Part shown: positions 36,015 to 62,500 of the stretch, piece by piece
Layout of the letters: every line of letters begins with the position of its first letter
Numbering within the stretch: position 1 is the stretch's first letter
DNA from: Isurus oxyrinchus
Taxonomy: Eukaryota
DNA: 64,000 bases
Reading direction: 5' to 3'
Assembly: GCA_026770705.1 (NCBI GenBank)
Contig: JANJGN010000031.1
Span: forward strand, 930,001-994,000
Translations under genes and position numbers: made by a program
The notes under the pieces: model-generated
The model's database searches: none
What the model was told of the DNA's origin: nothing
The model's input: only the letters and a program-made list of their open reading frames with translations

Positions 36015-36080
36015 AAGGGTGGGGCTTTCAATCAGAGGAGGCGGGGCCTGGCCTTTTACACCTACATCACTTCCTTAAGC
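36015..36080 (+). promoter_or_regulatory. Putative V2 promoter
   Basis: tcaatcag 36028, ggcggggc, and tacatcacttcct (partial CRE-decamer overlapping an ETS core) upstream of the ATG at 36189. Confidence 0.5.
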
Positions 36081-36188
36081 TCTTCATGTTTTCCTCAATG
36101 ATTTTAAACAAGCAGGTCAGCTCCCAACAAGACTCCATCTTCTTGGCTCAGCTCATTTCCTTATTACAGGAAAGGTTTACCAGTCAAC

Positions 36189-36685: not shown

Positions 36686-36725
36686 CACAGTGATTTAAAG
36701 AGATGGAGTATCTCAAACAAACACC
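36686..36725 (+). other. RSS of V2 (consensus heptamer, 24-bp spacer)
   Basis: cacagtg 36686-36692, 24 nt, acaaacacc 36717-36725. The spacer aligns to the V1 spacer with one extra base. Confidence 0.85.
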
Positions 36726-37619: not shown

Positions 37620-38185
37620 TCTCCAAATGGCATTACGTTCGCTCAATGCTCCATCATCGATGTCCTATGGATTATCATTGACCAGAATCTCAAGTCAGAG
37701 GCTGAGAATTCTGTGGCAAGTAACTCACTTCTTGACTCCCCAAGGCCTGACCACCGTATACAAGGAACACGTCAGGAATGTGATGGCATCCTCTCCACTT
37801 GGCTTGATGAGTGCAGCTCCCATAACACTCGAAGCTAAACACCCTATGCCCGGGGCAAAGCAGTCCATTGAAGGCACCACATCCACTAAAATTCACTCCC
37901 TCCATCACCAATGCACAGTAGCAGCAGTGTGTACCATCTACAAGATGCACTGCAATAATTCACCAAGGTTTCTTTAGCAATGTGATCCAAACCCGCTACA
38001 TTTACACCTGGGAGAGGGACAGCAGAGACATGGGAACACCACCACCTTCAAATTCCCCTCCAAATCACACACCATTCGGACTGGGAAATATTTAACTCTT
38101 CCTTCACAGTCGCTGGGTGGAAATACTGGAACGCCTTCCCTAAAAGCACCGCTGGTATACCCACACCCAATGGGACTGCAGCTGG
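37620..38185 (+). mobile_element. Family B LINE 3' fragment
   Basis: LTPQGLTTVYK..MSAAPITL..AAVCTIYKMHCNNSPRFL. Confidence 0.8.
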
Positions 38186-38530
38186 TTACATAAATAGGGA
38201 GGGTTGATGGGGCTGGAGCATGTTACACCGACAGGGAGCATTGTAGGGGGTGTAGGAGGTTACAAAGTTAGGGAGGGTTGTAGGGGCTGGAGGGGATTCC
38301 AGAAATTGGAACGGTTGGAGTAAGTTACAGAGATAGGAAGGGTGTTATGGGCTGGTAGAGGTTACAGAGATAGGGAGAATTGTAGTGGCTAGAGTTGGTT
38401 ACTGTGATAGGGAGTGTTGTAGGTTCTGAAGGTGGTTACATAAATAGGAAGGGGGTTATGGGCTAGTAGAGATGACAGAGGTAAGGAGGGTTGTAGGGGC
38501 TGGAGGTGCTTACAGAGATAAGGAATGAGT
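38185..38530 (+). repeat. Degenerate ~38-bp minisatellite
   Basis: About 9 copies of a unit like ggttgtaggggctggaggaggttacagagatagggag. Confidence 0.85.
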
Positions 38531-40714: not shown

Positions 40715-40815
40715 CAGCCAATCAGATGGGCAGGAGCTGTCAATGAGGGTTAGAGGGCGAGGTTTTGTCGGTTCACTGCCCTCTTCCAGTTCAGTTGGTT
40801 TTGTTATCACTTCTA
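40715..40815 (+). promoter_or_regulatory. Putative V3 promoter
   Basis: ccaatcag 40718 followed by ctgtcaatgagg and gggcga, ~180 bp upstream of the ATG. Confidence 0.55.
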
Positions 40816-40896
40816 GTTAGGGCCTCCCAAGCAACAGTCTGACAGACAGGGCCTCTGGCTTTTGTTACTCCACCCTCAGGGCCTGTGTCCCGAACC

Positions 40897-41505
40897 ATGC
40901 GGATTTCCTTTCTGTCCGGCGTGCTGTCGCTGATCTTGTTGGCGGGTAAGTAAAGCGAGTGCTCGGAGCCACACCGAGGTCTTTAGGATTTGGAGCAAGA
41001 ATGTGTAAAAATAGCTCGCAAAGCAAGTATTTAATGAGAAGAGAGACAGATAGAGAGAGAATGAGTGAATGAAACAGTGAGCGAGCGAAAGAGATAATGA
41101 TAGAAAGAGATAGAGTATGTGACAGAAGAGTATCAGTGACAGAACAATTCATATTTCTGGGGAAATTGAAGTCTCCAGTTTTAATTATCCCTGTTTTACT
41201 TCAAGGTCCTGGTGCGCCTCAGAAGATTGTGCAGTCCCAGCAGTTTGTGTCGGTGAGACAGGGCGAGTCGGTGACTATCCCGTGTACCCAGCACGGGAAT
41301 GATAATTCCATGTACTGGTATCGCCAGCTCCCGGGCCAGGGGCTCCGGAACCTCTTGTACGCAGTGCATGCAGGGGATCCAACCAGGTCGGAAGGGATCA
41401 CCGAGAGATTTTTTGCCAAGAAGACAACAAACGGCAACTTCGACCTGAAGATAGGGACAGTGGAGCGGGCCGACGCGGCTCGATATTTCTGTGCTTGCAG
41501 TGATG
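40897..41505 (+). CDS. TRBV: TCR beta V segment V3, apparently functional (leader 40897-40945, V exon 41206-41505)
   Basis: Leader MRISFLSGVLSLILLA with g|gtaagt donor; acceptor caag. Open exon QKIVQSQQFVSVRQGESVTIPCTQHGNDNSMYWYRQLPGQG..ERFFAKK..FDLKIGTVERADAARYFCACSD with Cys23, WYRQ and YFC; resembles fish TRBV. Confidence 0.92.
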
Positions 41506-41544
41506 CACAGAGACATAGTCAGGCTGAACCGTGTTACAAAAACC
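41506..41544 (+). other. 23-RSS of V3
   Basis: cacagag 41506-41512, 23-nt spacer, perfect nonamer acaaaaacc 41536-41544. Confidence 0.95.
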
Positions 41545-43336
41545 TGCCCGTCTCAGGCACTATAAACCCATGAGTTCTAATGTTATGTCGGACATGATTC
41601 AAGGTGGAGGAATCCGTGTGTCAGAGGGAAAGTTAGCTGTCCTCTATCTATTATCTACATTAAATATATTATCCACCTGTCTGTCTATCTGTCTGCCTTT
41701 CTCTCTGCCTGTCTGTCTGTCTTTCTCTTTCTGTCTGCCTGTCTGTTTAGCTACATATCTAACCGCCTATCTGTTTATCTGTCCATGTATCCCTCCATCT
41801 TATCCATCATTTATCTCCCTGCCTAAAGTTAATTTATTATAATTGCGCTAACTGATGAAGAAAAATCTGTATCACCGGATATAATGTCCTGCTTTTAAGA
41901 TATCAACAGTCACATTGCGTTATTTGGACAAACGTATTAACACGTCATGAGGCATACGCAGATTTTGAGAGGATCATGGAATGATTTAGCACGGAAGGAG
42001 GCCATTCTACCCAACGTGTCCGTACTGACATTGTTAAGGAACGATCCAATTAGTCCTTGTTCAGTCTGCTTTCACAATCCTTCCAGCTAACGTCATTCAC
42101 AACATAAGAACTGACTGAAGAAAGCAATTCTAATTACCGCCCCCAGTCATCTTAATACATCATTCACTGGAAAAGTTTCTGCCCATTCACTATCAAAAAC
42201 ATCCATGGCTCTATCAAATCTCCGCTGTGGAGGAGAATGTCGGCTACTCCAATCTGTCCACACAAACTGAAAACCCTGGAAACCCTCACCCTTTCACCAT
42301 TCTGGCAAACCTTGGCTCAGCCATCTCAGCTCTAACGAGAATAACCAACACAAATCGGAAATAAATAATTTCGGAACCTTTAAACGCCTCTGATACAGTG
42401 TACAAGGTGTATTCAACAGCGGGACACCTGCCCCCTGACAGCGGTTTCAGAATCCGCTGAAAACTGTTAACTCACTTCTCTCAGACAGAAGGCCGCGTTT
42501 CAGGTGTTTATGAAATAATCTGTGAGTTATTGCCAGCAAAGAATTTAACGCTTTCGTTAATGCAGTGCTGGTGCCTGTTCCGATATGTTAAAAGAGAATC
42601 AAAGAACAGAAGAAAGCCATTCCTCCCATCGAGCCTGTGCTAGATCTGTGTGAAATTAGTACAATTAGACATCCCAATTCCCTTCAAGTAACGCAACAGC
42701 AGATTGTTCCATTTCTTTCTCCCTGTCTGCTCCTGCAGCTTCATCACAAATCCTACTAAATGCTTCAGTGCTGTTCTGCTCAAATACATTCTATATCAGC
42801 GAGGTCCACATTCTCACCACTCTCCTGAATACCCGAGTGGATTTATTACTAACTATCTTATAGTCATGGTCTCAGGTTTGGTCTCTCCTGTACATTACTT
42901 CCCCGCCTCACCCTGTTATTTGCCCAGAGCGTCCATTTATTGACCAAAATTCTCCCCTTCAATTATTATTTCCATTCCCTTTAGAAAGGTAGAATTGAAT
43001 TTGCTGCTAACACCCCATCCGGCCGCATCTTCCGGAAGTATTCGTTGCCTCCTTATCTCCCGAGGCTTTGTATGCCAATTATCTTAAGTCTGTATCCTCT
43101 GGTTTACGACCCTCCAACAGTGAAATGGCTGTCACTTTAGCAACTCTATCAAAACCCTTCCTTATTGTGAACGCCCCTATTAAAGTTCTATCTGTCATTC
43201 TCTGCTCTATCATTTATGTGACGTTGATGAACCGCCTGAGGATTGAGTGGAGTGTGGGTTATGAAGCGTGTTATTCGCAACCGGAAGTTTAATCAACTGC
43301 AGAAGTGTGAGAGCCTTTGAACGTGCTCCGTTCGTT

Positions 43337-44078
43337 TAGAAACATAGAAACATAGAAAAGAAGAGAAGGTGTAGGCCTTTCTGCCCTTCGAGTCTGCTCC
43401 GTCATTCATTATGATCATGGCTGACAATCCAACTCAATAGCCTGCTCTCGCTTTCTCCACATATCCGTTGACCCCTTTCACCCCACGAGCTATATCTAAC
43501 TCCTTCTTCAAAATATACAATGTTTTAGACTCAAATACTTTCTGTGGAGCGAATTCTGCAGGATCATAACTCTCTGGATGAAGAACGTTCTCGTCATCTC
43601 AGCCCTAAAGGGTCTACCCCTTATTGTCAGATTGTGACCCCTGATTCTGTACTCCTGCACCATCGGGAACATCCATCCTGCATCCAACCTGTCCATGTCT
43701 GTTAGAATTTTGTAGGTTTCTATGAGAGCCACCCTCATTCTTCCGAATTCCAGCGAATATAATCCTAACAGCCTCAATCCTTCCTCATATGTCAGTCCTG
43801 TCACCCCAGGAGTCACTCTGATAAACCGTCGTTGCGCTCCCTCTATAGCAAGAACTTCCTTCCTCAGGGAAGGAGGACAAAACTGTACACAATCTTCCAC
43901 GTATGGTCCCACCAAGGCCCTTTTTAATTGTAGCAACTCATCCCTGTTCCTGTACTCGAATCCTCTGGCTAAGGCGGCCGACATACCAATTGTCTTCTTT
44001 ACCGCCTGCTGCACCTGCATGCTTACCTTGAGCAACTGGTGTACAAGGGCACCAAGGCCTCGCTGCACATTCCCCTCA
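43337..44078 (-). mobile_element. 5'-truncated CR1 immediately upstream of the V4 leader
   Basis: ORF 43508-44068 with CR1 RT C-terminal motifs; (agaaacat)n tail at ~43338. Confidence 0.9.
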
Positions 44079-44092
44079 GCGAAGCAGCCATT

Positions 44093-44983
44093 ATGCTGTT
44101 TGAATTTCAGTATCGAGCATTGATTTTGTCACTAATTCCATGTAAGTCAAAGTAACAAACTTTTAGATATGTCTTTGTAGCGTTTTGCATTAGAATGCCA
44201 GTTGTCGTCGATCTGGTAGTAATCTAGAGATTTAAGCTCAGATCCAAGGTGATACTCCCGAGGCCAATGCAGTGGCTATTCGGCACTTTCAGATAAGGCG
44301 TTAAACTGATCGGCCCTCTCTGGTGGATGGAAGTGATCCCTGCGCCAAATTGGTGTGTATTGAGTGCTGAGTGTACTGAGCCAGCGTGTATCTCAGAAAC
44401 AACACCAAAATGCCCTGGTCATTTGTTCATTGCTGTTAATGTGAGATGGTTATGCTCAACCTCTCCCCCGCGCTTTTCCCATCACAACAATGACTAGATT
44501 TAAATGAACCCTCGGTGGTAAAAAGATTTGGGATTTCAGAGGTCGGGAACAATCTTTATGAATGGATGCCATTACTTTCTCTATATATCTTCTCTGCCCT
44601 AATCGATTGTTGACTAAAATGAAAATCCAATGGATGTTCTATACATTAGAAATACTCGCCTCTTACGTGGAGTAGTCGGTTTCTCTGCTATTGATTACAG
44701 CAGGGGAAGTCAGCCACATTCTGTTGCACGCTGATGAATATCGGCTATCCCATATGTTCCGGTACAGACAACAACCAGGTCGTGCATTTGAAACTCTTTT
44801 CTATCCTGCGGGAGCAGTGGTTGTCACCAGTTACACCTCCGAGTCATTTGAGGCAGTCAGGACCAGAAAAAACACTGTTTATTCTGGAACTGAGAGACTC
44901 CGCTGCATCTCACGCTGCTGTCTACACCCGTCCTTGCAGCATCGAACATCTTTCGAGAAGCCGGATCCGCAACTACAATACAC
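44093..44983 (+). pseudogene. TRBV: TCR beta V pseudogene V4, TRBV30-like, heavily decayed
   Basis: Candidate leader 44093-44141 (MLFEFQYRALILSLIP, t|gtaagt). Exon from 44650 across frameshifts: YVE*SVSLL / GKSATFCCTLMNIGYP / HMFRYRQQPGRAFETLFYPAG..ESFEAVR / PEKTLFILELRDSAASHAAVYTRPCS. Degenerate RSS aacatct-23-acaatacac (44945-44983). Confidence 0.8.
44255..44570 (+). mobile_element. Deu-domain SINE remnant in the V4 intron
   Basis: ctttcagataaggcgttaaac..ctctggtggatgg..gatccc..cattgctgtt..acaacaatgacta resembles the DeuSINE/SacSINE1 core, from recall. Confidence 0.6.
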
Positions 44984-46104
44984 AGGCATCCAGCGTCATT
45001 TTACACCACTAGGTGGCAGCATTCGATAATTTTCTGTCACCTGTGATGAAAGTGTCATAATTGTCAGAATATTTTCTGCTTTATTGTGAAGCAGGTTTAA
45101 GGGGGTAAGTACAGTTGAGCATCCGGGAGATTTAATTACATTTAGGGTCAGGTAGTCTGCAAGTTTGAAATCATCAAAAGAAGCTAGGTGCTTGACATGC
45201 TAATGAGTAAACATGGATGCTGGCTTATCATGCAATGTTTGAAGGTAATTTGCATTTTTAGATAAATGAAGAGAAATAGATTTCAAAGGGATCTTACCCT
45301 GTTTACCAGTAGCCAGATAAGCAACGCTAAGGAGTGTGATATTTTTCCCAAAGGTTACTGACAATATATTGACAGCATGATGGTTTTATATTATGAGAAA
45401 GATGCAGTTTCGAACAATCAGGAACAATATGATTTACAAATTAAAAATAGAGAAACAGAATAAAAGGCGAAGTGTCAGAAGGCCATGTATGAACTAAAGA
45501 AGTGTGTGAAACAGCTTTTGTGCATAATTCTGCGAGATAACGAAATTCAAGTTGGGGAAAAGCCATTTGGAACTCCACTTGCAAGTGGGGCACTGTGTTA
45601 ACATGATAATCCTGTTTTAAGCCTAAAATCTATCTTGGAACGTTGCCTTAAAGGGAGTGTAACTGTGGTTCAGAGAAATTAGGAATTTTAGGATTAATAT
45701 AGCAGTCAGTAACAGTAGTCTTAGGTAAGCACTTGAAATCTTTATATTTTGTCAATAAATATTTTATTTTTTAAAAAATCACTGAAGGTCTTGGTGGCCT
45801 CATTACTTCTGAATTCAGTGAACACATCTTGTAATAAATACGAATTACAAACTGTTGTGATAGAGTGACCAAGTTTCTCTTGTGGATTTGGTCCACCTGG
45901 CACACATCATCTGCCACATCATAACAGACCATGCATGAGAAAGGACAGCAGGAGATGTTTTTGCCCAAGTTACTGGGTATGGCCCACTTTTTAAGAACTA
46001 TTCATTCGCCAGGTACCAGGGAAGTACAGTGCTTCCATCCAACCACAAGTTAGCTCTATGATTAATTATCGATACCAGGTTAAACAGGGACTGATTTTTC
46101 ACCA

Positions 46105-46920
46105 CATGGTGTCACAGTTGGTTCAGTCGGTGACTTTCTCAAGTCCGAGTCAGAGCGTCTAAGCTTCAGGCCCCCACTCTAGAGTCTTCACCAATCTAGG
46201 CTGGCACTTCAGTACGAATAGTGAGGGAATGCTGCAAGTTTATTATCTGTCCTCATAGGTAGACATAAGAAAGAGACACTTGTATTTAAATACCACCTCA
46301 AAGGCCCAAAGAATTCCCCAAAGCACTTTGCAAAAACTGAATATTTTGCGTTGTAGTCACTAGTCAAATGTAACGGATTCGAAAGCCTATTTAGGTATAA
46401 GAGCTCCCAAAACACAACTTACAAACTGACAGGTGTCATGTATCAGTGATATTGGTAGAAAAACACATATTTGCCCATGACAACGCCTAACTTCCCACTT
46501 TTCGTCTCCTAGCAGCATCAGTGGAAATTATTTCATTGAACATGAGTGCAGTTGTGAATCGGTTTAATACATTATTCGAAAGCCAGCACCACCAACAGTG
46601 TAGCAGTTCCTCAGTACTGACCGTCCCACAGTGCAAGATCCGCTCAGCATCTACTTTCTGATAGTGCAGCACTCCATCAACACTGGCCCTCCGGCCGTGA
46701 GGCACTCCCTCAGTACAGACCCCTAGCAGTTCTACAGCCCCTCATCATTGACCCCACGACAGTGTGGTACTCCCTCAGTACTGACCCTCCGACAGCACTG
46801 TAATCCCTCAGCACTGACTCCCTGACAGTGCGACTCGCCCTCACTACTGACCCTCGGACAGTGCAGCACTCTTTCACTACTGACACCCCGACATGGCGAC
46901 TGTCCCTCACTACTGACAGT
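46105..46920. mobile_element. Two Deu-domain SINE pieces in opposite orientation plus a ~33-bp tandem array (46600-46920)
   Basis: tRNA-like head at 46105-46240 (+), reverse copy at 46270-46620, then ~9 copies of cagtactgaccctccgacagtgcagcactccct. Confidence 0.7.
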
Positions 46921-47497
46921 TAAAGTCTAAAGTCCGCCTAACTCTGTTTCAACTTTCATCCCTGCAGCGCATTCCATTACCACAGGGCGCCCAAAAAATG
47001 CTTCACAACATTTGAAATATTACAATGTATTTAAGGGCGACAATCATCTTCTGCACAGCAAGATCACAGAAAGAGCAAGACGGTGACAAACAGGTGATTT
47101 CGCCATTCTTCTTAATGTTGGTTGTGGTGCAGATCGCGACCCAGGACATTAGATTTTGCAGTCTCCCCGAGTGTGAATGTGTCGGTGCCACATGCATTTG
47201 CCCAACTAGCGTCGTCCTGCCAATTTTCCAACGCTCTGACGATAGACTCTTGCAGCACGAAGGAAGCCATTTGGCCCGTCGTGCGCGTGCCGGCCCTCTG
47301 CGGAAGTTAGTCCCACTTCTTCGCCTTTACCCGATAGCCCTGCAATCCCTTTCTCTCCAGGTCTTATCCAATCCAATTCCCTTTTGAAAGGCACGATTGA
47401 ATGCTCCTCCATCATGTGTCAGGCAGTGTATTCCAGAACGCAACTGTCCTCAACAACTCAGTTCCACTTAACAATTCCTCACAATTCCCTCCCTCAG

Positions 47498-48045
47498 CCG
47501 CATTCAGATGTCCCATGGTGCGCCAGCGGCGGAGGTGGTTGTTCCAAATGATTAAGCGGCGGCAAGGCAATGTTTTCAAACATGTAGCAGTAATGAATAC
47601 CTGTAGCAGTAATACATGTAGCAGTAATGATTACATGCAGCAGTAATACATGTAGCAGTAATACATGTAGCAGTAATGAATACATGTAGCAGCAATACAT
47701 GTAGCAGTCACACATGTAGCAGTAGTGAATACATGTAGCAGTAATACATGTAGCAGTAATGATTACATGTAGCAGTAATACATGTAGCAGTAATACATGT
47801 AGCAGTAGTGAATACATGTAGCAGTAATACATATAGCAGTAATGATTATATGTATTGTTACGAGCAGCTGAGAGACCAGGCCTGAAAGTCACAGTGACCT
47901 CCGTGTCCTTTATCGCGCTAATGCACGAGGAAGAATTCAAGAAACGGCTTGAATTCAGGAGGCCAATCTGAAGTCCTGCATCCTGCAAACACTGAGCGTG
48001 GAGCAGACTGACACGGTGACCTATTACTGTTGAACAGCAAATGCA
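47498..48045 (+). pseudogene. TRBV: TCR beta V pseudogene V5 (V6 family), CDR1 occupied by a minisatellite
   Basis: Acceptor ccctcag; MVRQ / AEVVVPND*AAARQCFQTCSSN [repeat array] DYMYCYEQLRDQ / GLKVTVTSVSFIALMHEEEFKKRLEFRRP / LKSCILQTLSVEQTDTVTYYC*. This parallels V6 (CYQNDSS..YEENFK..KTCTL..YYC). Leader and RSS not confidently identified. Confidence 0.82.
47580..47847 (+). repeat. Minisatellite of 16 units (7 x 19 bp and 9 x 15 bp), acatgtagcagtaat(gaWt)
   Basis: Units counted directly; total 268 bp. Confidence 0.95.
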
Positions 48046-48269
48046 GACCCAGTCCAAAATCTCACTGGGTAACCAAACGGAAAAATTCCAGGCACTCCCA
48101 GACCTAGCGTCGCATAGCAACACGTACGAAATTCCTCCATCTGTTTTGTGTTGGCTGAGTTAATTTCCTCTCGAAAACAGACAGAAGCATTTCGGATTAT
48201 ATGAGTTCACCCATATCTGCGCTGTTTTCATTCAATGCATCAATAGAACTTAAAAATAAAATGAAATTG

Positions 48270-48926
48270 CAGGTTCTTTATCTGAAAGCACGAAGCAGCT
48301 GAAATTAGATGGATGAATTAGTGGCACAAATATAAGTACACGATTTATATGTAATCAGCATGTCAAAAACATGGTGATAAAGGGAATTACATATTAACGG
48401 ATACACAATATGTAGGAAAGTAAACATAATGTCAAAGGGGGTGTGTAGCCCTGACAGTAAAGGGAGACATACAGACATTAATGAGAAAGGATCTGGAGCC
48501 TGAAGATCATGAAGTAGAATCCGTGTGGGTGGAAATAGCAAATGTCAGAAAATACTGGTGGGACCAGTTTCCCGGCCCCCCTCACAGTAATGATACCATT
48601 GGGTACAACATTTAACAGGAAATTATTGAAGTTTGTTACGAAAGCAATGTAATAATTGTTGGGGACTTTAACCTTCATAAAGACTGGGGCAATCAAATTG
48701 GTAAGAATGGCTCAAATGTGTTTGGGGAATGTTTCCGTGACAGGCTCTTGGAGCAGTACGTACTGGATCCAACCAAGGATAAAGCTAACTGAGGTCAAGT
48801 TTTTTTGTCATTCTTTCATGGGATATGGGTGGCGCTGACATGGCCAGCAATTGATCATTTGTGTAATAAAGCAGGGTTAACTCACAATGTCATAGCAAAA
48901 GATCCAATGGGAAAGAGCCATACAGT

Positions 48927-48972
<46 letters not shown>

Positions 48973-51420
48973 CCATACAGTTTCATGTTAAGTTTGAAAG
49001 TGACATATTCCAATCGCAAACAAGAACCTTAACATTAAACAAAGCCAATCACACAGATATGAGGTGACAACTGGCTAAGGGTAGTTGGGTAAATAGACTA
49101 AATGTTGAGGCTGTAAACGAACAGAAACAATTCAACATGTTCAACCAAAATGCATTCCACTGAAGAGCAAAAACTCAGCGAGGAAGGCCCACCCTTACTC
49201 AGAAGTTAAGATGGCATTAGATTAAAAGCAGAGGCTGATAATGTTTCAACAAAAAAAAATACTATAGCAAACTATAGATTTAAGGCGAGAGGAGAAAACT
49301 TTAGAGGAGATGTGCTGGGCAATTGTTTTACGCAGAGGATAGTGAGTGTCTGGAATTCGCTGCCAGAAGAGGTGGTGGAAGCAGGTATGATAGTGGTGTT
49401 TAAGAGGCAGCTTGACAAATACATGAATAGAATGGGAGTAGAAGGATACGGACCCTGGAAGTGCAAAATGTTTTAGTCTGACAGGCAATATGACCGGCTC
49501 AGGCTTGGAGGGCCGAAGGGCCTGCTCCTGTGCTGTACTTTTCTTTGTTGTTCTTTGAGGATTGGGAGTGTTTCAGGAACCAGAAAAGGGCTACCAAAAA
49601 GTTGATAAAAAGGAGGAAGAACAAAATATGAGAATAAACTATCCAGAAACATAAAAACAAATTGCAAGAGCTCTTATAAGTGTATGAAAAGGATACGGGT
49701 AACTAAGGTAAACGTTGGCCCCTTGGAGAAATTATCATCGGGAACGGGCAAGTGGCAAATATATTGCGTCTGTCTTCAGAGTAGAATACATAACTCCCAT
49801 GCCAGAAATAGAAGGTGACCTGGGGCTAAAATGGTGAGGAAATTAAGGAAATTAATATCAGCAGAGGAAAAGTATTGCAGAAACATAAGGGACTAAAATG
49901 CAGCAAAGCCCTAACGTCAGATGGCTACATCCTGGGCTTCTAAAAGAAATAGCTATAGCGTTAGTGGTTGTGCTGGCTATGATCTTCCAAAATTCCTTAT
50001 CTTCAGAAATGCTCCCACTAGATTGGAGGTTGGCAAAAGTTGCACCACTTTTCAAGAAAGGAGGAAGAGCGATAACAATGAATTATTGGCTGGTTAGACT
50101 AAAATTAGTTGCTTGCAAAATGCTGTAATCTATTACTGAGGAAGTCTTAAAGCACTAACAGAAGTAATTAGAACCAGTCAGCATGGTTTACTGAAGGGGA
50201 ATCAGTAATTTATTGAAGCGTTTTGAGGATGGACCTAATAGGGCTGATAAAATGGAACCAGTAGGTGTTGTATACCTGGATTTCCAAAAGGGGTTCTGTA
50301 AGGTGCCACACAAAATTTTAATAGGCAAAATAAGGGTTCGTGGTTTTGAGGGAATTAAATTAGTATGGATGGAAGATTGGTTAATGGTTTTAGCAAACAT
50401 ACATTGGGCATAACGGAGGCTTCTTCAAGTTGGCAATCAATGAATAATGGAGTGAACAAGGATCAGTGCTGGGGCCTCAGCTATTTGCAATCTGTATTAA
50501 TGACTTAGATGAAGGTAGAGAGTAATATATCTAAGTCTGCTGATGATACCAAGCTAGGTGGGAAGGTAAGATGTGGGGAGGACACAGAGAGGCTGCACAG
50601 AAATACAGACAGGTTATGTGAGTGGACAACAAGATGGCAGATGGAATATAAAAAAGGGAAATGTGAATTATTCATTTTGGTTATAGGAATAAAACACCAC
50701 AATACATTTTGAAAGGTGAAAAAATTGAAAGTGTTGATGTTCAAAGAGATTTGGTTGTTTTGGTGCAAGATTAAGTTAACATGCAGGTTCAACAAGCAAT
50801 CGGGAAGGCAAGTGGCATGCTGGCCTTTATTGCAAGGGGATTGGAGAACAAGAATAAAGAAGTCTTCCTGCAGTTGTACAGAGTTTTGGTCTGGAGTACT
50901 GTGTCTCGATCTCCTCATAACAAGGATTCACTAAATTAGTCTCTGGGATCAGGGGATTGTCTTATGAGAAGAGGCTGAGTAAATTGGGTTTATATCCTCA
51001 GGAGTTTAGAAGAATGAGAGGCGATCTCATTGAAACCTATAACATTCTGTTGGGGCTTGATCGGGAAGGCGATGAGAGATTGCTTTTATTGGCCGGGGGA
51101 TCTAAAATACGGCGGCACAGCTTTAGGATAAGGATCCGGTCCTTTAGGACTGAGATGAATAGAAATTTATTTATTCAAAGGGCTGTGGATCTTTGGGATC
51201 CTCTATCTCAGGTTATCGTGCTTGCCCCATTGTTGATTACAAGTTAGCTAGGATAGAATGATTTTTGTTCTCTCAGGGAATTAAGTGATACGGGGAGCTG
51301 GTGGAGAAATGGAATTGAAGCCCAAGGTGAATCATTATGGTATTGAATGATGGAGCAGGTTCGATTGGCATGTGGTTTTACTCCTGCTGCTACTTTTTAT
51401 GTTGTTATGATCCTATGTCT
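48270..51420 (+). mobile_element. Decayed near-complete CR1 ORF2 with a nested CR1 3' end (~49265-49555) and (TAA)n (48928-48970)
   Basis: LHPGLLKE..DWRLAKVAPLFKKG, YLDFQKGFCKVPH, SADDTKLGG, RRMRGDLIE. Confidence 0.88.
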
Positions 51421-52844
51421 ACCACCTCTAGGAGGAGCTCCTGAGCACGAGTGTGAATTTTGCAGATTCAGTGAAGCTGGAGTGGACCATTAAGTCCCTC
51501 GAGTCAGTTACATCGGAATGAAAAAAGAAGCATTCAGCGATTGGAAACAGTTTCCCCAAATCGTTAGGTCATGGCTGATCTGTAGCAAAACTGAGCCTGT
51601 CTGTCTTGGTTTTGCGCTGCTTAATACCATTTCATACCAATGAAAAATCTACTCATCGCAGGGGGCTTCGATTTAAAGTAATTGGTGGAAGGATAAGAGG
51701 GTAGTTGGATAGGATTTGTTTTATCCAGCTGGTGGTGGCGGTCTAGATTGCACTGGGTGAGAGGGTGGTAGAGGCAAAAATCTTGACCCGTTAAAACATA
51801 CATTTGGATATACACTCGAGCCTTTATGACCTTCTGGGCGACAGGACAAGGACTGAAAGGTGGAATGAGACAGGAGAGCTTTTCTTCTACTGAAACGAAT
51901 GCGATGGGTTGAATGGCCTCCTTCGGTGTCCTAAACCTTCTCATGAAATGTTGATTATTTTTTCAATTTACATCCCCCGCAGGCTCAAACGCTTTTTAGG
52001 GAAGGGAGTGGCAGATTTTCACTATAGTTTGTGAGAAGATGTGCTTACTGACATCGCCCCTAAACAGCCTCGTACCAATTTTAAGATTATGCACCCCTAG
52101 TTCAGGACGCCATACCAGAACATATCATTTTTCGCCATTAACCCTATGGGATCCATTCATTAAACCCGTGTATTATTAAAATATAATAATTATTAAAATA
52201 TTAAAAATCTCAATTTTTTCTGGGGAAAAGTTAGGTAACGATCAACGGCTATAATGGGGGTCGACGCAATTATCAAGCTGAAATAAATTGTTGAATCATC
52301 TTTCTTTTTATTCATTCTTGGGAATGTGAACGTCGATGAAGAGAGTGGGCATTTGCTGACAATGCATAGCTGCCCCTTGAAATTGTTCTGGCTATCCATT
52401 TTCTTGAACACGCTCAGCCTTCCTATGGTGAAGGTGGGGTTACAGTGCTCATAGGGCGCGAGTTCTAAGATTTTGACACAATGTTCATGAAGGACCGATC
52501 AAATCGGGATGGGAACGGGATTCTAGGATTCTCATTGAACTTGATGTTCTATTGGCTTAACGACGTTTATGTTGGTTAATCTTATGTTAAGTTCTTAAGG
52601 TAGGACAAACTCACTCTAAGATACTTACTAGGCCAAGGCATTTCTAATCAGAGAGATAGCAGGAAAACATACATTTTTAACAAGTCAGTCCATGTGCTTG
52701 GCCCTCCGCGTAAACACAAATAATCCCAAGCGCATTTGCTCGCCCTGTACCGTGATAATTCAATCGAACAGCTTCCAAAATTTGTGCAAGGTGGAAGAAC
52801 ACCTCGACTTATAAGCAGCCCCGGAACTCAAACCCAATTCTAAC

Positions 52845-53035
52845 CGAGGGCGGGGGGAGGGCAGGCAACCGAACCAGTAAGACATCTGGGTCCATCCACC
52901 GCCAATCAGACACCGACAATGAGGCCCGGATACAGGTGAGAAATTATTTAATTATCGCACTGTATTCTGCCCGAGTGTCTGAACAGGACTTCATAGAGGA
53001 AGTGAAGAGCACGGCCCCTCCCGAAGTCACGTTGA
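52845..53035 (+). promoter_or_regulatory. Putative V6 promoter
   Basis: GC box gggcgggg ~52847, ccaatcag 52902 then caatgagg, ETS-like aggaagtg ~52997. Confidence 0.55.
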
Positions 53036-53074
53036 AATTTCTCCATTCACAGATTCAGGTCCCAAGCCTGTAGC

Positions 53075-53496
53075 ATGCACTTACCGGGTCTCTTCATTAT
53101 CCTCTGCCCTCTGTTACCAAGTAAGTATTGTAGATTTATGACAATCCTGGCGCTAACATTACGTCGGCGTTTTCATTAACTAATAACCTTTATCGAACAA
53201 GATTTGGAAGATAAGCGTCATTTTTGAATGACTACTTAATCTGTGTAGAACAGGATAATTGATCGAAAGTTTTTGGTGAATAATTTTAGCTCATAATTTT
53301 CTTTTAAATGAATAACCAATACACGGATTATCTTAACTTTATTAATGCTTATCGAACAGATTTTCGCGAATTACTGGCCATTTTTCTACTTGATGTCACT
53401 TTCTATCTATCTAATGCATAAATATCCATCTATTTTGTATGTGTTTTATCTCTCTCTACCTATGTATCAGTTTGTCTATCCATCTTTTATTTAGCG

Positions 53497-53553
<57 letters not shown>

Positions 53554-54022
53554 CCTATCCATTCATCCTTCCAATCATCCAACTATTTTCCCTTTATCTG
53601 TTCATGATCTATCTATAATGTCTATCTACTATCTGTTAATGTATCTGTCCATCTAGTTAACATAGTCAACATGGTTGAATGATGCGCTGAATTTTGTAAA
53701 TATTCTCCTTATTTCTCCAGGTAAAACGCTGGCAGAGATTATTTACCAATGGCCAAGTGGGTTGACGTTGAACAAAGGCGAGCCAGCGGAATTGAACTGC
53801 TACCAGAATGACAGCAGCAAGTACATTATGCTGTGGTACCGGCAGTACGCCGGGCAGGGTCCCAACCTAATCGGTTACTCCGGCACGGGAATTGCATCCA
53901 CTTACGAAGAAAACTTTAAGAACGCGGTCGAGATTGTAAGGGCGGGGGACAAAACATGCACCTTGAAGATCTTCAAGGTTAAGACGGCAGACTCAGCGGT
54001 CTATTACTGTGCCAGCAGTGAG
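53075..54022 (+). CDS. TRBV: TCR beta V segment V6, apparently functional (leader 53075-53120, V exon 53721-54022)
   Basis: Leader MHLPGLFIILCPLLP with a|gtaagt donor; acceptor ttctccag. Open exon EIIYQWPSGLTLNKGEPAELNCYQNDSSKYIMLWYRQYAGQGPNLIGYS..YEENFK..DSAVYYCASSE; the CASS ending is typical of TRBV. Confidence 0.95.
53498..53556 (+). repeat. (TCTA)n microsatellite in the V6 leader intron
   Basis: More than 12 perfect tcta units. Confidence 0.95.
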
Positions 54023-54061
54023 CACACCGATGAAAACTGCGCTGGTACCAGCACAAAAACC
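54023..54061 (+). other. 23-RSS of V6
   Basis: cacaccg 54023-54029, 23-nt spacer, perfect acaaaaacc 54053-54061. Confidence 0.93.
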
Positions 54062-54648
54062 AACAGGATGAACACCAGAACTGACTGCAAGGTACAAGCC
54101 TTGAAAACAACTCATGTCTTCCCGCTTCACGGGCCGCTTTTAACAGGTTGAGTGACACCCTCAGTTAGGTGTGAATGACAGGGAATATTAGAAGGTTCTA
54201 GGAGATGATGGAGAGAGAGAAGTGGGGAAAAAGAGTTGCCCCGGATTCTCATGTTCATCGTCTTCGTTATTTTCATGTATATGTTAACATTCAAATCCAG
54301 ACATTGTTCTGGACTTGATCAATTAAATAGAATATTTAGTGATTTAAATAATGAAATATTTAAACCTCACCGCGGTAAAGAGTTGAAGAGGCAAACAATG
54401 ATTCAACATACGATTTTCGAAGCTTTAATTTATTCATTCTGGACAATAAGTATCAAATATATTATATTAGCCTTTTTAAAATTCGCATTCAGATTCCGTT
54501 TTGTAGACCTCGCGATTCTATATCACAGTCGCATTGTCCCGGGTGCTTGAGTGAAATTAGAATTTTTATTTCAGCACTTCTCCAACATCAATCGTCGCAA
54601 AATCAATATAATGTCCCTAAATGATTTCAGCCCAGTTCCTGCGTTCAG

Positions 54649-54942
54649 GGCGTTCCTGGAGTAATGAGGTTCAAAAAATGGCGCGGCGCTACTGAGCGAG
54701 GAGGCACCGACTGACCTGCCACCAGAACAGAAAACTTGCCAATAACATGTTGTGATACGGTCGGGCCGCCGAAGAGGCGCCGCCTTAACCCGTTCGAAAC
54801 ATTTCAGGAGGCGAAGCTCCGTATTTTGAGGGTTTTCAGGACGGGTTTTGTATAACTAAACTATTGGGACGGAAGAAGGTCCATCCTGACAATGAAGAGA
54901 GATTAGCCTACCTTCATCGCCACTTATTTTTGAGCAGCTCAG
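54649..54942 (+). pseudogene. TRBV: TCR beta V pseudogene V7 (V6-like), not visible in the ORF track
   Basis: Acceptor gttcag; manual translation SWSNEVQK..RLTCHQNRKLANNML*YGRAA..ISGGEAPYFEGFQDGF / SILTMKRD*PTFIATYF*AAQ. Trp41 and Cys104 codons are both TGA. A LINE 5' end follows immediately and no RSS is seen. Confidence 0.8.
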
Positions 54943-55859
54943 TGGGAGGTGATGGAGAAGCGGCAATGTCACTGGACTGGTAATCTCGAGAGCCAGCTAA
55001 TGCTCTTGGGACACCGGTTCAAATGCCCCTATCTAGGTACACTAATGCCCGTTTGGGGAAGGAAATCTGCCGTCCAGGTAATGGCCTGGCCACCAAGTGT
55101 CTCCAGACCTGCAGCAATGTGGCTGAAGCTTAGCTGCCCTCTGAAATGGCGCAGCAAGCTACTCAGTTGTATCAACATTCTGGAAGTAATAAAACTGGGC
55201 GGACAACCCGGCATCGACCTAAGCGCCATAAATGGCAGCGGCAATTCCAGCTCTGTCGACAGTGCAAAGTAGTTCCCACTAACATCTGAGGACTTGTGCC
55301 GAAAGCTACAATCTGACATAGACATACTCATGAAATATTGACTTACTGTGTCCCAAATATTGTCATCATCACCTTTGGGTATGTCCTAACCCATTGGCAG
55401 GACAGGACCACCAGAGGTTGGCACAAGCTCAGAGGGGGGCGCCCATTTAAAACAGAGATGAGGAGGAATTTCTTCTCTCAGAGGGTAGTTAATCTGTGGA
55501 ATTCTTTACCGCAGCGGGCTGTAGAGATTGGGTCGTTAAGTGTATTCAAGGCTGAGACAGACAGATTTTTAATCAGTAAGGGAATCAGAGGTTGTGGGGG
55601 AAAGGCAGGAAAGTGGATTTGAGGAATATCAGATCAACCATTGAATGGCGGAGCAGACTCGCAGGGCCGAATGACCCACTGCTGCCCCTGCTCCTCATAG
55701 TCTTGGTGGTGTGTGGAGTTGCCCTGGGTCTCCTCAACATTGACTCCTAACCTCACGCAATCTCACGGAATCAGCTGAAATATGGGCAAGGGAACGTCCT
55801 GATCATTACCACCCATCGACTCCCATCCCTTTTCAGCCGATGCATCTTTTTCCATGTGG

Positions 55860-56065: not shown

Positions 56066-56374
56066 TTTCCAGCATTCGCAGTGTTTTGCTTTTATTTCCT
56101 TCATGTTGAACACTGACTGAGGAGGTACTGAAGGTTACAAGGACACAGAATGTACTATGGGTGAGGGACTCGGCAGTAACACTGCTGACTGAGCTGGCCG
56201 AGACCTGGAGGACAAACCTGTTGGACCACATCTGTGGTAGGTGGTGAGTGAACCAACAAGAGGGAAAAACATTTTTTACTCTGTCTACATCAATGTACCT
56301 GTCGCAGATGCATCTGTCACGACACTATTAGTAGGAATGATGACGTCACAGTCCCTGTGGAGACGAGGTTTGGG

Positions 56375-58535
56375 GGAGAGCGGATTTTAGTCAAATAAGG
56401 CAGGATCCGGCCAAGCTAGACTGGGAAGAGCTACTTCTGGGGAAATCTACAGAGGAGCAGTGGGGAGCGTACAAAAAGGGAAGGGGGAGGGTACAGGCTC
56501 GAAATATTCCCTCTAGGGTGATAGGAAGAAGTAACAAGCCCAGAGAACCATGGATGACCAGAGATATTTAGGACACGATCAGAAGGAAAAGAGAGGCTTT
56601 TAGCAAGTAAAAAGGGAGCAAATCAGCGGAGGCATTAATGGAGTACAGAAAGTGCAGGGTGGAACTTAAGAAAGCTATTAGGAGAACAAAGACGGAATAT
56701 AAGAAAGCTCTCTGGCTGGTAAAAACAGGGAAAATTCCAACATATTCTATAAGTATATCAATGGGAAGAGGATAACCAGGGAAAGAATAAGTTCCATTAG
56801 GGACCAAGGGGTAAACTATGGGTGGAGCCAGAGGACATCAGTAGAGTGTTGAACTAATTCTTCCCATCCATCTGCACCCAAGAGAATAAGGATGAAGGTG
56901 TGGAGCTCGGGGATAGAGACTGCGGGGTTCTTAAGCAAATTGATATGGGGAGTGACAAGGTATTGGAGGTGTTGGCAGGCTTAGAATTGGACAAACCTCC
57001 AGGTCCAGATGATTTCTGTCCCAGGCAGCTGAGGGAGGCAAGGGAGCAGATCGCAGGAACTCTGACCCAAATTTATAATTGCTCTCTGGCCAAGGGGGAT
57101 GGGCCAGAGGACTGGAGAATAGCTAATGTGGTTCAGCCATTTAAGAAGGGTTGTAGAGATAAGCCATGGAACTACAAGCCAGTGAGTCTCACGTCAGTGG
57201 CAGGGAAACTACTGGAGAAAACTTTAAAGGAGAGAATCTATCTCCACTTGGAGAGGCAATGTCTGATCAGTGATAGTCAGCATGGCCTTGTCAAAGGGAG
57301 GCCATGCCTAACAAATTTTATTTTTGAGGAGGTGACCAGGTGTATAGATGAGGGTAGTGCAGTTGATGTAGTTTATATGGATTTCAGCAGAGCCTTTGAC
57401 AAGGTCCCACATGGGAGACTTACAAAGGTGGCAAATGCACATGGGATACAGGGTAAGTTAATAAGTTGGATGGAAATTTGGCGTTTTTGGAGGAGATGGA
57501 GGGTGATAACAGAAGGATGCTTCAGTGACTGGAAGCCAGTGTCCAGTGGTGTGCCACAGGGATCTGTGCTGGGTCCTGTATCATTTGTCATTTACATAAA
57601 TGACATAGATGACTATGTTGGGTGTAGGATTGGTAAGTTTGCGGATGACACAAAGATTGGCCAGGTGGTTAGTAGGGAAGTTGTGTGTCTTGGGCTACAG
57701 GAAGTTATAGACGGGATGGTCAAATGGGCAGATAAGTAACCCTGAAAAGTGTGAGGTGATGCACTTTGGAAGGAGTAAATTGACAAGGAAGTATTCAATG
57801 AATGGCATGACACTAGGAAGTTCTGAGGAACAAAGGGACCTTGGCATTTGTTTCCATAGGCCTCTGATGGCAGAGGGGCATGTGAGTGGTGTGGTGAAAA
57901 AGGCATATGAGACACTTGCCTTTATCAATCGAGGCATAGATTAAAAAAGTAGGGAGTTCATGTTGGAATAATATAGAACCTTGGTGAGGCCACAGCTGGA
58001 GTACTGTGTGCAGTTCCGGTCACCACATTATAGGAAGGATATGATTGCACTGGAGGGGGTGCAGAGGAGATTCACCAGGATGTTGCCTGGGATGAAACAT
58101 TAAAGTTATGGAGAGAGGTTGGACAGATTTGGATTGTTTTCGCTGGAGCAGAGAAGACTGAGCAGCGACCTGATCGAAGTGTACAAGATTATGAGGGGCG
58201 GAGGCAGGGTGGATAGGGAGCAGCTGTTCCCCTTTATTTGAAGAGTCCGTCACCAGGGGCCATATGCTCAAGTTGAAGGGCAGAAGGTTTAGGGGGATAT
58301 GAGGAAAACCTTTTTACCCAGAGGGTGGTGACGTTCTGGAATGCGCTGCCTCGGAGGGAAGTTGCCTCACATCCTTTAAAAAGTACCTGGATGAGCTCTT
58401 GGCACGTCATAACATTCAAGGCTATGGGCCAAGTGCTGGTAAATGGGATTAGATAGGTAGGTCAGTTGTTTCTCAAGTGTCGGTGCAGACCCGATGAGCC
58501 GAAAGACCTCTTCTACACTGAGTGATTCTGTGATC
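56375..58535 (+). mobile_element. CR1 ORF2 fragment with 279-aa open RT core (56900-57739)
   Basis: KPPGPDDFCPR, YMDFSRAFDKVPH, GVPQGSVLGP, KFADDTKIG; (attctgtg)n-like tail. Confidence 0.93.
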
Positions 58536-59189
58536 TGTGGTTCTGAGGTCCTGCCTTCACATTGAAGATACCCTCCATCGTGTTGTGTGCCATTCCCACC
58601 TTGCTAAACGGGATAGATTTCAAACTGATCAAGCAGCTGAAAACTGGGCATCCATGAGACACAGTGGGATATCATTAATAGAATTGAATGTAACCACAGC
58701 CTGTAACTTCATGGCCCAACATATCCCCCACACTACCATTGCCATTAATGCAGCAAATCAACCCTGGTTCAATGAAGAGTGCAGGAGGGCATGCCAGGAG
58801 CAGCACCGGGCATACCTAAAAATTAAGAGTTAACCTGGTGAAGCTACAACACAGGACCACTTGCATGCCAAACAACGGTACAGCTTGCTATAAACTGAGC
58901 TGGGCAATCCCACAGGCAACTGGTCAGATCTAAACTCTAGAGTTCGGGAATGGTGATGGACAATTGCACAACTAAAAGGAGGAGGAGGTTCCACAAATAT
59001 TCCCAACACATCAGTGCAAAGGACAAGGCTGAAGGAAAAACAACCATCTTTGGACAGAAGTGCAGAGTGGGTGATCCATCCCACCCTCCTCCGGAGGTCA
59101 CCAGCATCACAGAGGCCAGTCTTCAGCTAATCCGATAAACTCCAAGTGATATTAAGTAATGGTTGAACGTACTGGATACTCCAAAAGCT

Positions 59190-59507
59190 GCAGAAGGTGA
59201 GGAGATTTCCACAAATCAGCCAACATATTTTCATTTTATTCAAGCATTTCTGTTGTTTCCGTTTGGTAAAATGGGGGCAACAGAAAACCAAGGTTTGTAA
59301 ATAAGCGCTAATTTCAATACTGATTCAATGTAAGAGGTATAAAGAATGTCATCTATTCTCTTTACTTTCTAGGTGGAAAGGAAACGCCATAATGGAAATG
59401 ATATTGTAACTATCATATTCCACGAAGGAGACGAATCATTGCAGTCCTTCAAACCATCGATGATTCGTTCCTATTTCACATGTATCCTCTTCCCTTTTGT
59501 GTACAGT
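59190..59507 (+). pseudogene. GARNL3: Isolated GARNL3 (RapGAP-domain) gene fragment: intron, exon 59373-59481 and U12-type donor, embedded in a LINE
   Basis: Polypyrimidine acceptor ctttctag, then VERKRHNGNDIVTIIFHEGDESLQSFKPSMIRSYFT, matching the RapGAP catalytic KRHIGND motif and, from recall, GARNL3 VERKRHIGNDIVTIVFQEG..FKPSMIRSHFTH. Followed by gtatcct. Upstream donor-like ag|gtgagg at 59197. Confidence 0.8.
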
Positions 59508-62500
59508 AAGGGACCTGAAAAAATTCTGGCATTAGCACTCAAGATTTGTGCTCCAGAACTAGCCATGTCCCGAGCCATTCGCTTCCACCATAGTTACAAC
59601 ACTGGCATCTACCCGGAAATCTGAAACAGTGCCCTGTGCACAAAAAAGTATTGCAAATCCAACCTGCCTATTTACTGTTCCATCAGCCTCCTCTGGATTA
59701 TCAGTAAAGTGATGGAAAGGGTCATCAACAGTGCTTTCAAAGGCACTTGCTCAGCAGTAACCTGGTTACTGATGCTCAGCTTGGCTTCTGCTAGGGCCAT
59801 TCAGCTTCTGACCTCATTACAGCCTTGGTCCAAACATGGACAAAAGAGTTGAACTCAACAGGTGAGGAGATAGCAACTGTCCTTGACTTAAAGGCTGCAT
59901 TTGACCAAGTGTAATATCAAGGGGTCCTAGCAAAACTGGAGTCAATGGGAATCAGGGGGAAAATTTTCCATTGATTGGAATCATACCTAAATCAAAGGAA
60001 GATGGTTGTGGTTGTTGGAAGCCAATCATTCAAGGTCCAGGACATCATTGCTAGTGTCCGTTAGGGCAGTGTCCTCAGCCCAACCATCTTCAGATGCTTC
60101 ATCAATGACCAAATCCAGGCTGGAAGTTGGGGTATTCTCTGATGATTGCACAGTGTTCAGTACCATCCACAATTTCTCAGATACTGAAGCAGCCCATGTC
60201 CACATACAACAATACCTGGACATTAAATAGGCATAGGCTTCGATGTAGCAAGTCACAATCACTTTGCAGAAGTGTCCGGCAATGGGCATCTCCAACAAGA
60301 GAGAATATAACCATCAACCCCTGACATTCAGTGGTGTTACATGCTGAATCAGTCACTCTCAACATACTGGGAGTTATCATTAAACAGAAACCTAACTGAA
60401 CTAGCCATAAAAACACTGCGGCTACAAGATCAGATCAGAAGCTAGGAATCCTGCAGTAAGTAACTCACCCCCTGACTCTCCAAAGCTCATCCTCCATCCA
60501 CAAGGCACAAGTCAGGAGTATGATGGAATACTCCCTACTTGCCTCGATAAATGCAGCTCCAATAACACTCAAGATGCTCAATATGCTCTAGAACAAAGCA
60601 GCCCATTTGAATCGTAGCCCATCTACCACCTTAAACATTCAGTTTCTCCATCACTGACTCACAGTGACAGCAGTGTGTATTATCTATAAGATGCACTGCA
60701 ACAACTCACCAATGTTCCTTCAATAGCGCCTTCCAAACCCGCAACCTCTACAACCAAGATGGACTAGGGCAGTAAGGCACATGAGAGCATCACCAGCTGC
60801 AAGCCTCTGGAAGCCACACACCATCTTCACTTGAGCTATATTGCCTTCACTGTCTCTGGGTCAAATCCCTCGAACTAACTTCTGAACAGAACTGTGGGCC
60901 TACACCACATGGGCTGTGAGTTCAAGAAGGCGGCTCATCTTTTAAAGGACAATTGGGGATGGAGAATAAATGCTGGCCCAGCAGGGGTGACTACATTCCA
61001 TGAACGAATAAAAAATAGCTAACGATGGGACTTGCAGTTCAGAGTGACTTAGTGCCTAGGCAAAGAAGATGACAATTGGCCTCAAACTGATGTATGTTTA
61101 CTGAGGATGCAGGTAACAATCCCTCGTGTACAGCTTTATCTGCATGTAACCAGTTTAGGCACTTGGAACATATTTTTGGCATGCAAATCCCTTTGTTAAA
61201 CCACTGTTAGAGCAGACTGCACAATTATAATCTCCCTATACCTTTGTTAGGCTACATTTTGAGAACTGTACAATGCACTGATCTCTATACACCATGCCAT
61301 GCCATACTTGGTGCACTGCACACTGTCCTGTTCTCCACATAGCTTGGTTAGACGACCTTTTGGAACCTGGACACAGCTATGGCCTTTATATCCCTTGATT
61401 ATTCCACACTTGAGGCATTGTGCAGTCATAATCTCCATATACCTTGCTTAGACCATGTCCACGTAAACCATCATGACACTTGTCGGTAAAGGTCAAACAG
61501 GAGGAGGGCATTGTGGAACACACTGGCCTAGAGTTGATTGGACAAATGGCCTGATACTGTGTTGTAGATTCAATGCTATTGCACGTAACAAATATCAATA
61601 TATGAAACTGAGGAGGCAACTAATCTTTTGATCTCTTTCAACAGATGAAATAAGATGTCATTCGTTATCATTTAAATTGGCGAAAAAAAGAAAATCACAG
61701 GCCCATGTAGTGGCACACTGTCACTCGGAAGTGGCACTGTATCTCCACTGAAGCCTGTACACAACATGGCTGCAGGGTCTCACTCCGGTCTCATCAACTG
61801 AACTGGATTTAGGACTGAAAGTGATATGTCTGCAAAATCAGTAATCGACAAATAACACATTACTCCCACACTTCGCAATGTTCTTCAGTTTGCTGCTTTA
61901 CATATAGCATCGTGCAAGAATCAAAATGGTTAGTCTTCCGGGGAGGGATCTTAACTCAGAAGAACTCATAAAGGGATGGTCCTCTTGAATTAAATCATGC
62001 ATCACAGACTTCCGGCAGAGAAACAGCTGAAGTTGTTGAAACAGGAGGAGGCCATTCAGTTTCACTAACTTCTTACACAGGAAGGCCTTCTTGTCTTTCC
62101 CTCCTTCATCAAAGGAAATAATTCCTCATTTTCCACCTGATTATTCCTTTATTTGTGTGAAACAACACAATATGATCACCCCTTTATCTCCTATGCTCAA
62201 ATGATTATACGAAGGTGCTAGCAGTATTGGCAGGGAGATACTCTCTGGTCCACCCAGGCCTGGTTCACATGTACATCATCGATGACAATATACAAACTGC
62301 CCACCTACCCACAGTCATGGGACAGAAGGAAAAAAGAGACAGAAACTCAAACTGATTTTGGGTGTGGCATCTGAGAAATTCCTCTCCGGCTACTCTTGGA
62401 TTTCCAAAATCAGTCCAGAGCTCCCTATGACACTAATAATTCAATGTGGTATGTGCCTTTTGCAAGAGGCAGTTCTCACCCGAGTCAGAAACTTGTCGGT

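What the first reader, a model, noticed from the sequence alone, without database searches (positions are those of the whole stretch)
59190..59507. Unspliced GARNL3 fragment with a U12-type donor captured in the middle of a LINE
Seen: the family B LINE RT frame stops at ccaaaagct (59189) and resumes at aagggacctgaaaa (~59508), apparently splitting a KAMGPD-type motif with almost no loss. The ~318 bp between contain cagaag|gtgagg (end of an upstream exon plus donor), a 176-bp intron, a 109-bp RapGAP exon and gtatcct. Established: GTATCCT is the U12 5' splice signature and KRHIGND is the RapGAP catalytic motif. Inference: because the intron is retained and the orientation matches the LINE, this could be a double template switch onto pre-mRNA during retrotransposition, or a templated DNA-repair insertion. 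It has since decayed (I>N in the motif). No other GARNL3 exons are visible in the window.
Basis: partly seen in the sequence, partly recalled or inferred. Interest (0 to 1): 0.72.

Follow-up and report, generated by a model that had tools for sequence, protein, structure and literature searches.

The report
GARNL3 repair patch in dead retrotransposon
A 318-base unspliced piece of the GARNL3 gene from another chromosome sits flush inside a broken jumping-gene copy among likely T-cell-receptor gene segments of a probable shark; it was likely pasted in as a DNA-repair patch after that copy had died, a known kind of scar with no sign of function.

Summary
The insert is real. 59190-59507 is an 88% copy of the single GARNL3 gene on contig C8: 183 bp of intron tail, a 109-bp RapGAP exon and 26 bp of a true U12 intron. 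The LINE halves join with no loss in other copies, and contigs of two other organism labels bridge the junctions.

Two first-reader claims fail. The 'upstream exon plus donor' is an old intronic repeat; the real upstream exon lies 23.7 kb away, so no whole 176-bp intron was retained. The capture also post-dates the LINE's integration. The block was duplicated into three copies on C31. Before the oldest split the LINE had gathered 9.2% shared changes, 4 stops and 8 frameshifts, the insert at most 2.9%; later rates are equal.

This argues against a double template switch during retrotransposition and for a templated repair insertion, with a 5-nt microhomology and no TSD or poly(A). DNA versus pre-mRNA template is unresolved. 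The site lies in a likely TCR-beta V cluster, with no RAG signal at the break. The kind is known (class 2 TSI; repair-mediated duplication), and this scan noted similar patches in other genomes.

The parts
58545..59189 (+). 5' part of the dead host LINE up to the break (continues upstream at about 56097-56369, beyond a later LINE insertion)
   Evidence: 73-78% to the 37 non-C31 copies among 40 scored; upstream continuation and third-copy contiguity
59190..59372 (+). Captured last 183 bp of the 23.7-kb GARNL3 intron; the first ~50 bp derive from an old dispersed repeat; acceptor ends 59372
59373..59481 (+). Captured 109-bp GARNL3 exon (RapGAP motif region); open here, R>C in the second copy, a stop in the third
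59482..59507 (+). First 26 bp of the GARNL3 U12-type intron (GTATCCT donor)
59507..59511 (+). 3' junction: 5-nt microhomology TATGG shared by parent and LINE majority; intact in the third copy, decayed by one base here
   Evidence: chance about 0.5-1%
59508..61015 (+). 3' part of the dead host LINE (RT region to 3' end), 19% from the family majority, many stops and frameshifts
   Evidence: weak RVT_1 on one open piece, E=0.057, below cut-off
56370..58544 (+). Second LINE with RT, nested in the host LINE and absent from the third copy (so younger than that duplication)
   Evidence: RVT_1 E=5e-21
53720..54061 (+). Nearest V gene segment with 23-bp-spacer RSS at 54023, co-duplicated with the insert; context, 5.2 kb upstream

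Best explanation
A 318-bp unspliced GARNL3 piece lies flush inside a dead LINE and was likely copied in as a germline double-strand-break patch, long after the LINE had integrated and decayed. Inferred steps: a break opened in the old LINE between the codons for A and M; the right end likely annealed to the GARNL3 template through TATGG, 26 nt inside the U12 intron; synthesis ran about 318 nt; the new strand rejoined the left end at an imperfect 4-of-5 match, losing 0-4 nt. The parent stayed intact. Soon after, the block with its V segment was duplicated, giving three copies on C31 that decay without sign of selection. Whether the template was chromosomal DNA or nascent pre-mRNA cannot be told.
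For: Flush junction, with no TSD, poly(A) or filler. 5-nt microhomology, chance 0.5-1%. Parent gene intact on C8. All three C31 copies share flanks beyond the LINE: 96.6% over 26 kb, and about 81% over 13 kb, so they are segmental duplicates. Changes shared by window and third copy: LINE 120 of 1304 sites vs insert 9 of 306 (p=1e-4); transversions 44 vs 3 (p=0.02); non-CpG sites 78 of 789 vs 2 of 207 (p=2e-6). Private changes are equal: 7.0 vs 8.2% and 7.0 vs 7.5%. The shared LINE changes include 4 stop-making substitutions and 9 identical indels, 8 of them frameshifting; 26 of 79 are synonymous, near the 23-28% neutral expectation. No subfamily explains them: 17 well-aligned copies carry 3-12 of 127 shared alleles, and 0 of 20 carry the shared insertions. 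No sister copy outside C31 exceeds 78-80% among 40 scored per search. Size and features fit PMC5110952 and PMC2671141.
Against: A strict filter (shared alleles seen in none of 20 other copies) gave 56 of 1322 vs 9 of 306, p=0.34; with at most one other copy, 85 of 1322, p=0.02. That filter is one-sided and included three partly unaligned copies, but the test lost significance. No empty-site paralogue of this very copy exists among the 3 full-length block matches, so the order of events rests on dating, not on a direct pre-insertion allele. The searches scored only 40 of about 9-10 thousand candidates, and one search missed the third copy itself. The 5' microhomology is imperfect and its ancestral state unknown. 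The parent intron shows only about 3% change against 7-8% in each copy, which needs a faster rate on C31 (partly supported: 1.7% vs 4.7% to organism C).
Confidence: 0.74

Rival explanations
1. End-joining capture of a free fragment (a small circle, an excised piece or a cDNA of pre-mRNA) at a break in the dead LINE, instead of synthesis primed on the donor.
For: The same dating applies. PMC5110952 argues many such inserts come from reverse-transcribed RNA. The fragment is colinear and unspliced, which fits DNA or nascent RNA.
Against: The 5-nt match lies exactly at the 3' junction, between target and donor flank. There is no filler and no permutation of the donor sequence.
Confidence: 0.14
2. 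Double template switch of the LINE reverse transcriptase onto GARNL3 pre-mRNA and back during integration, including mobilisation in trans of an already decayed source copy.
For: Same orientation; return to within 0-4 nt of the exit point; microhomology could guide a jump. Tripartite chimeras are described (PMC2104539, abstract).
Against: LINE and insert should then share one age, but the LINE carries about three times more pre-duplication change, with shared stops and frameshifts. No sister source copy was found. All insert-bearing copies are segmental duplicates.
Confidence: 0.06
3. Capture as old as the LINE, with the insert later reset by ectopic gene conversion from the C8 gene just before the duplication.
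For: It would also give a young-looking insert. Patchy identity between paralogous blocks (93% vs 81%) suggests conversion may act locally.
Against: It needs an inter-chromosomal conversion covering nearly all 318 bp. Few shared changes are seen in both the intron part (6 of 197) and the exon (3 of 109).
Confidence: 0.03
4. A functional, exonised RapGAP exon used in a TCR-locus transcript.
For: Acceptor, open 36-codon exon and U12 donor survive in the window copy.
Against: The third copy has a stop and the second an R>C in the motif. The exon has changed at the rate of the flanking intron (9 of 109 vs 16 of 197). No other GARNL3 exon maps to C31.
Confidence: 0.02
5. Assembly artefact.
For: None.
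Against: Three diverged copies. One contig of organism B spans both junctions, and contigs of organism C from two studies span them singly.
Confidence: 0.01

Closest known systems
Class 2 templated sequence insertions (TSI/TSIP; PMC5110952, parts 1-2 of 4 read)
   Same: Distant donor left intact; no TSD, poly(A) or polyadenylation signal; microhomology; size inside the 73-414 bp range of the experimental inserts; germline event
   Different: Ancient, fixed across at least three organism labels and amplified by segmental duplication; RNA origin not shown here
Repair-mediated duplications found as interrupted transposons (Pace et al. 2009; PMC2671141, parts 1-3 of 8 read)
   Same: Non-TE insert splitting a TE whose halves are contiguous in the consensus; 2-9 nt microhomology; intron/exon/intron donors listed (2 of 824); distant group mean 302 bp
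   Different: Donor is on another chromosome (254 of their 1,136), a group they did not class confidently as repair products; their pipeline filtered out multi-copy and segmental-duplication cases like this one
Tripartite LINE chimeras by double template switch (PMC2104539, abstract only)
   Same: Three-part LINE/cellular/LINE look
   Different: There the parts share one age and a TSD flanks the unit; here the LINE is older than the insert
Somatic templated inserts in antigen-receptor genes (LAIR1-type, PMC9457163, search listing only; RAG-mobilised inserts, PMC5339680, abstract and outline only)
   Same: Foreign exon with intron flanks inside an antigen-receptor locus
   Different: Germline, intergenic, 5.2 kb from the nearest RSS, not in a V(D)J or switch junction, no RSS at the break

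Membership tests
Class 2 TSI / repair-mediated duplication | Donor at a distant locus, left intact | tested here: met
Class 2 TSI / repair-mediated duplication | No TSD of 5 bp or more, no poly(A) tail | tested here: met
Class 2 TSI / repair-mediated duplication | Microhomology, microdeletion or filler at junctions | tested here: met
   5 nt at the 3' junction (chance 0.5-1%); 5' side imperfect
Class 2 TSI / repair-mediated duplication | Insertion into pre-existing DNA (target older than insert) | tested here: met
   by dating only, and one strict filter was not significant
Class 2 TSI / repair-mediated duplication | RNA or DNA template identified | not testable with these tools
   No splice junction is crossed, so both fit
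LINE double-template-switch chimera | All parts integrated at once (equal age) | tested here: not met
   120 of 1304 vs 9 of 306 shared changes
LINE double-template-switch chimera | Insert sense to the LINE RNA | tested here: met
   Both on +; one-in-two by chance
LINE double-template-switch chimera | TSD around the whole tripartite element | not tested
   5' end of the host LINE is decayed and interrupted
Processed retrocopy (class 1 TSI) | Spliced exons, poly(A), TSD | tested here: not met
   Intron on both sides of the exon
U12-type intron (parent intron) | GTATCCT 5' splice site at the true exon end | tested here: met
   Frame joins FTH/IFALV across it; orthologue listed as minor intron
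U12-type intron (parent intron) | U12 branch point near the acceptor | tested here: inconclusive
   No exact match to the recalled branch pattern near the acceptor; a 7-of-9 look-alike 12-20 nt upstream by eye; not scored with a matrix
RAG-generated break or insert | RSS heptamer abutting the break or the donor ends | tested here: not met
   Best candidates have 6 mismatches and lie 82 bp (window) or about 20 bp (one empty-site copy) away; none at the parent ends

The most novel reading that the evidence does not exclude
A germline counterpart of LAIR1-type templated inserts: the shark TCR-beta V cluster is a break-prone, fast-evolving region in germ cells, and its breaks are patched from nascent transcripts of testis-expressed minor-intron genes. 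The fossil would then record RNA-templated repair at an antigen-receptor locus, able now and then to bring whole foreign exons next to V segments.
Probability: 0.06. Interest if true: 0.6.

Novelty: new member of a known kind. Interest (0 to 1): 0.22.

Why it matters
It is a clean, datable example of a distant repair patch in a cartilaginous fish. The duplication lets the host LINE and the insert be aged separately, which separates repair from template switching; a single copy could not do that. It also marks the duplication history of a likely TCR-beta V cluster. No new function or mechanism follows. It would matter more only if such patches proved enriched in shark antigen-receptor loci or biased toward transcribed strands.

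Tried and rejected
Upstream exon plus donor inside the insert: rejected. Retrotransposed daughters carrying the insert: none; 5 of 5 matches were three C31 duplicates and two places in the parent intron. Empty-site paralogue on C31: none among the 3 full-length block matches. Subfamily origin of the shared LINE changes: rejected. Cryptic RSS at the break: none. Expression: no RNA holder listed, and two probable RNA runs gave no cover on the parent exons; neither is evidence either way. Homologue search with the V segment at 53720 found no candidate, and it is only 30% identical to the shark TCR-beta hit. Literature: 'GARNL3 + shark' 0 papers; 'shark + genome + repair-mediated duplication' 0 papers; only this library was searched. 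Earlier notes near this place: none. Rows dropped: 9 of 27 LINE copies (interrupted or partial); one search used 10 of those 27 plus 10 new copies; 3 of these 20 were dropped as partly unaligned. Four of 24 listed runs were laid on the insert and four on the parent.

Full report
OBSERVATION. The stretch 59190-59507 is as described. A search of the own genome gave 5 matches: the window (C31:989190), C31:870034 (98%), C31:1080496 (83%), C8:161727299 (88%, all 318 bases) and a 49-bp match 0.8 kb upstream of the last. The C8 exon's best hits are mostly named GARNL3, up to 95% to a basking-shark protein, which suggests a shark genome. A shark GARNL3 protein maps exon by exon along C8:161.42-161.84 Mb; the only other close matches are the same exon in the three C31 copies (a search the tool marked as a floor).

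ANATOMY. The insert is 183 bp of intron tail, the 109-bp exon 59373-59481 (Rap_GAP) and 26 bp of the next intron. In the parent that intron starts GTATCCT, is 3,999 bp long, and its removal joins FTH to IFALV in frame. Human and mouse GARNL3 have a listed minor intron with the same 5' site (PMC6717393, supplement rows). The branch point was not scored. The true exon ends KENKQQ with a GT donor 23,681 bp upstream. The 'cagaag|gtgagg' lies in an old dispersed repeat with 36 matches, and most aligned copies lack that GT.

JUNCTIONS. None of 27 other LINE copies has an insert here, and 20 of 27 read ATGG straight after the left junction; ten more copies agree. So essentially no LINE base was lost, and there is no TSD, poly(A) or filler. 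Parent and LINE share TATGG at the 3' junction, a match expected by chance in 0.5-1% of junctions. At the 5' side 4 of 5 bases match at -6 to -2, so the true join may lie up to about 4 nt further left. One contig of organism B spans 59086-59666 with 29 differences. Contigs of organism C span each junction, the 5' one in two studies. An organism A contig spans the 3' junction but may come from the source sample. These are short-read contigs, not long reads.

COPIES. The three C31 copies share flanks far beyond the LINE: 96.6% over 26 kb, and about 81% over 13 kb downstream plus blocks upstream. They are segmental duplicates, not retrotransposed daughters. In the third copy a later 5-kb stretch with LINE-like frames and a tandem array landed a few bases inside the insert, but both junctions are still present.

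DATING, THE KEY TEST. If the reverse transcriptase had captured the piece while the LINE integrated, LINE and insert would carry equal change from before the oldest duplication. They do not. Window and third copy share 120 of 1304 LINE sites against the family majority, but only 9 of 306 insert sites against the parent (p=1e-4). Transversions give 44 vs 3 (p=0.02), non-CpG sites 78 of 789 vs 2 of 207 (p=2e-6). Changes after the duplication are equal, 7-8% in both parts. The 9 is an upper bound, since it includes the parent's own changes. The left flank agrees: 50 of 610. The shared LINE changes look like decay in place: 4 stops, 9 identical indels, 26 of 79 synonymous. No sampled copy carries the set, and no copy outside C31 is closer than 78-80%. 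Against this: the strictest filter was not significant (56 of 1322, p=0.34), those searches scored 40 candidates each, and no empty-site paralogue is available. The parent intron changed less than the copies. Contigs of organism C differ from G000 by 43 of 2465 bases at the parent and 26 of 549 at the insert, consistent with a 2-3-fold faster rate on C31, though those contigs may be paralogues.

MECHANISM. Shown: donor, junctions, copy relations and the difference in shared change. Inferred: a germline break in the dead LINE, priming on GARNL3 through TATGG, about 318 nt of synthesis, rejoining, then duplication soon after. Not determined: DNA or pre-mRNA template, and the enzyme. Capture of a free fragment is the main rival.

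CONTEXT. The window holds V-set segments, three with 23-bp-spacer-type RSS. One is 62% identical to a catshark protein named TCR-beta-like, so this is likely a TCR-beta V cluster; the constant region was not sought. No RSS abuts the break or the donor ends, so RAG is not implicated. RAG activity in shark germ cells is recalled, not read here. The exon is open in the window but has a stop in the third copy and changes at the intron rate.

KNOWN KINDS. It meets the tested features of class 2 templated insertions (PMC5110952, parts 1-2 of 4) and of repair-mediated duplications detected as interrupted transposons (PMC2671141, parts 1-3 of 8). It fails the equal-age feature of double-switch chimeras (PMC2104539, abstract). 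Two searches found no paper on this case. The scan's notes list six similar patches in other genomes; they are unchecked, and one gave the lead to PMC2671141.

VERDICT. Real, ordinary in kind and unusually well dated. New member of a known kind; interest 0.22.

Noticed in passing
window 34180-54061: Four V-set segments on +, with RSS at 36686, 41506 and 54023; likely a TCR-beta V cluster running over C31:0.86-1.42 Mb. The one near 34180 is weak and may be a pseudogene.
   Followed up: partly
window 47534-55027 vs G000:C31:1066000-1073350: The V-containing block is 93% identical to the third copy while the adjoining DNA is about 81%, and the three V proteins are nearly identical: gene conversion or a more recent exchange.
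   Followed up: no
window 59508-61015: This LINE copy is 19% from the family majority, against 5-10% for most copies elsewhere; this suggests a 2-3-fold faster substitution rate in this part of C31.
   Followed up: partly
G000:C7:70095647, C4:96932931, C3:131663318, C21:101916131, C12:39762369, C10:164249940: Isolated Rap_GAP matches covering about profile positions 1-77 in one stretch, where several intron-bearing genes split at position 41: possibly spliced retro-fragments of RapGAP genes.
   Followed up: no
L003:560-860 and 1380-1550: A non-coding dispersed repeat of about 190-300 bp, present twice in the GARNL3 intron and at 30 or more other places; possibly a MITE; family not identified.
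   Followed up: partly
L004:1791-1797: In the third copy the U12 donor has changed from GTATCC to ATATCC, the AT-AC-type form (recalled); its exon has a stop, so probably chance.
   Followed up: no
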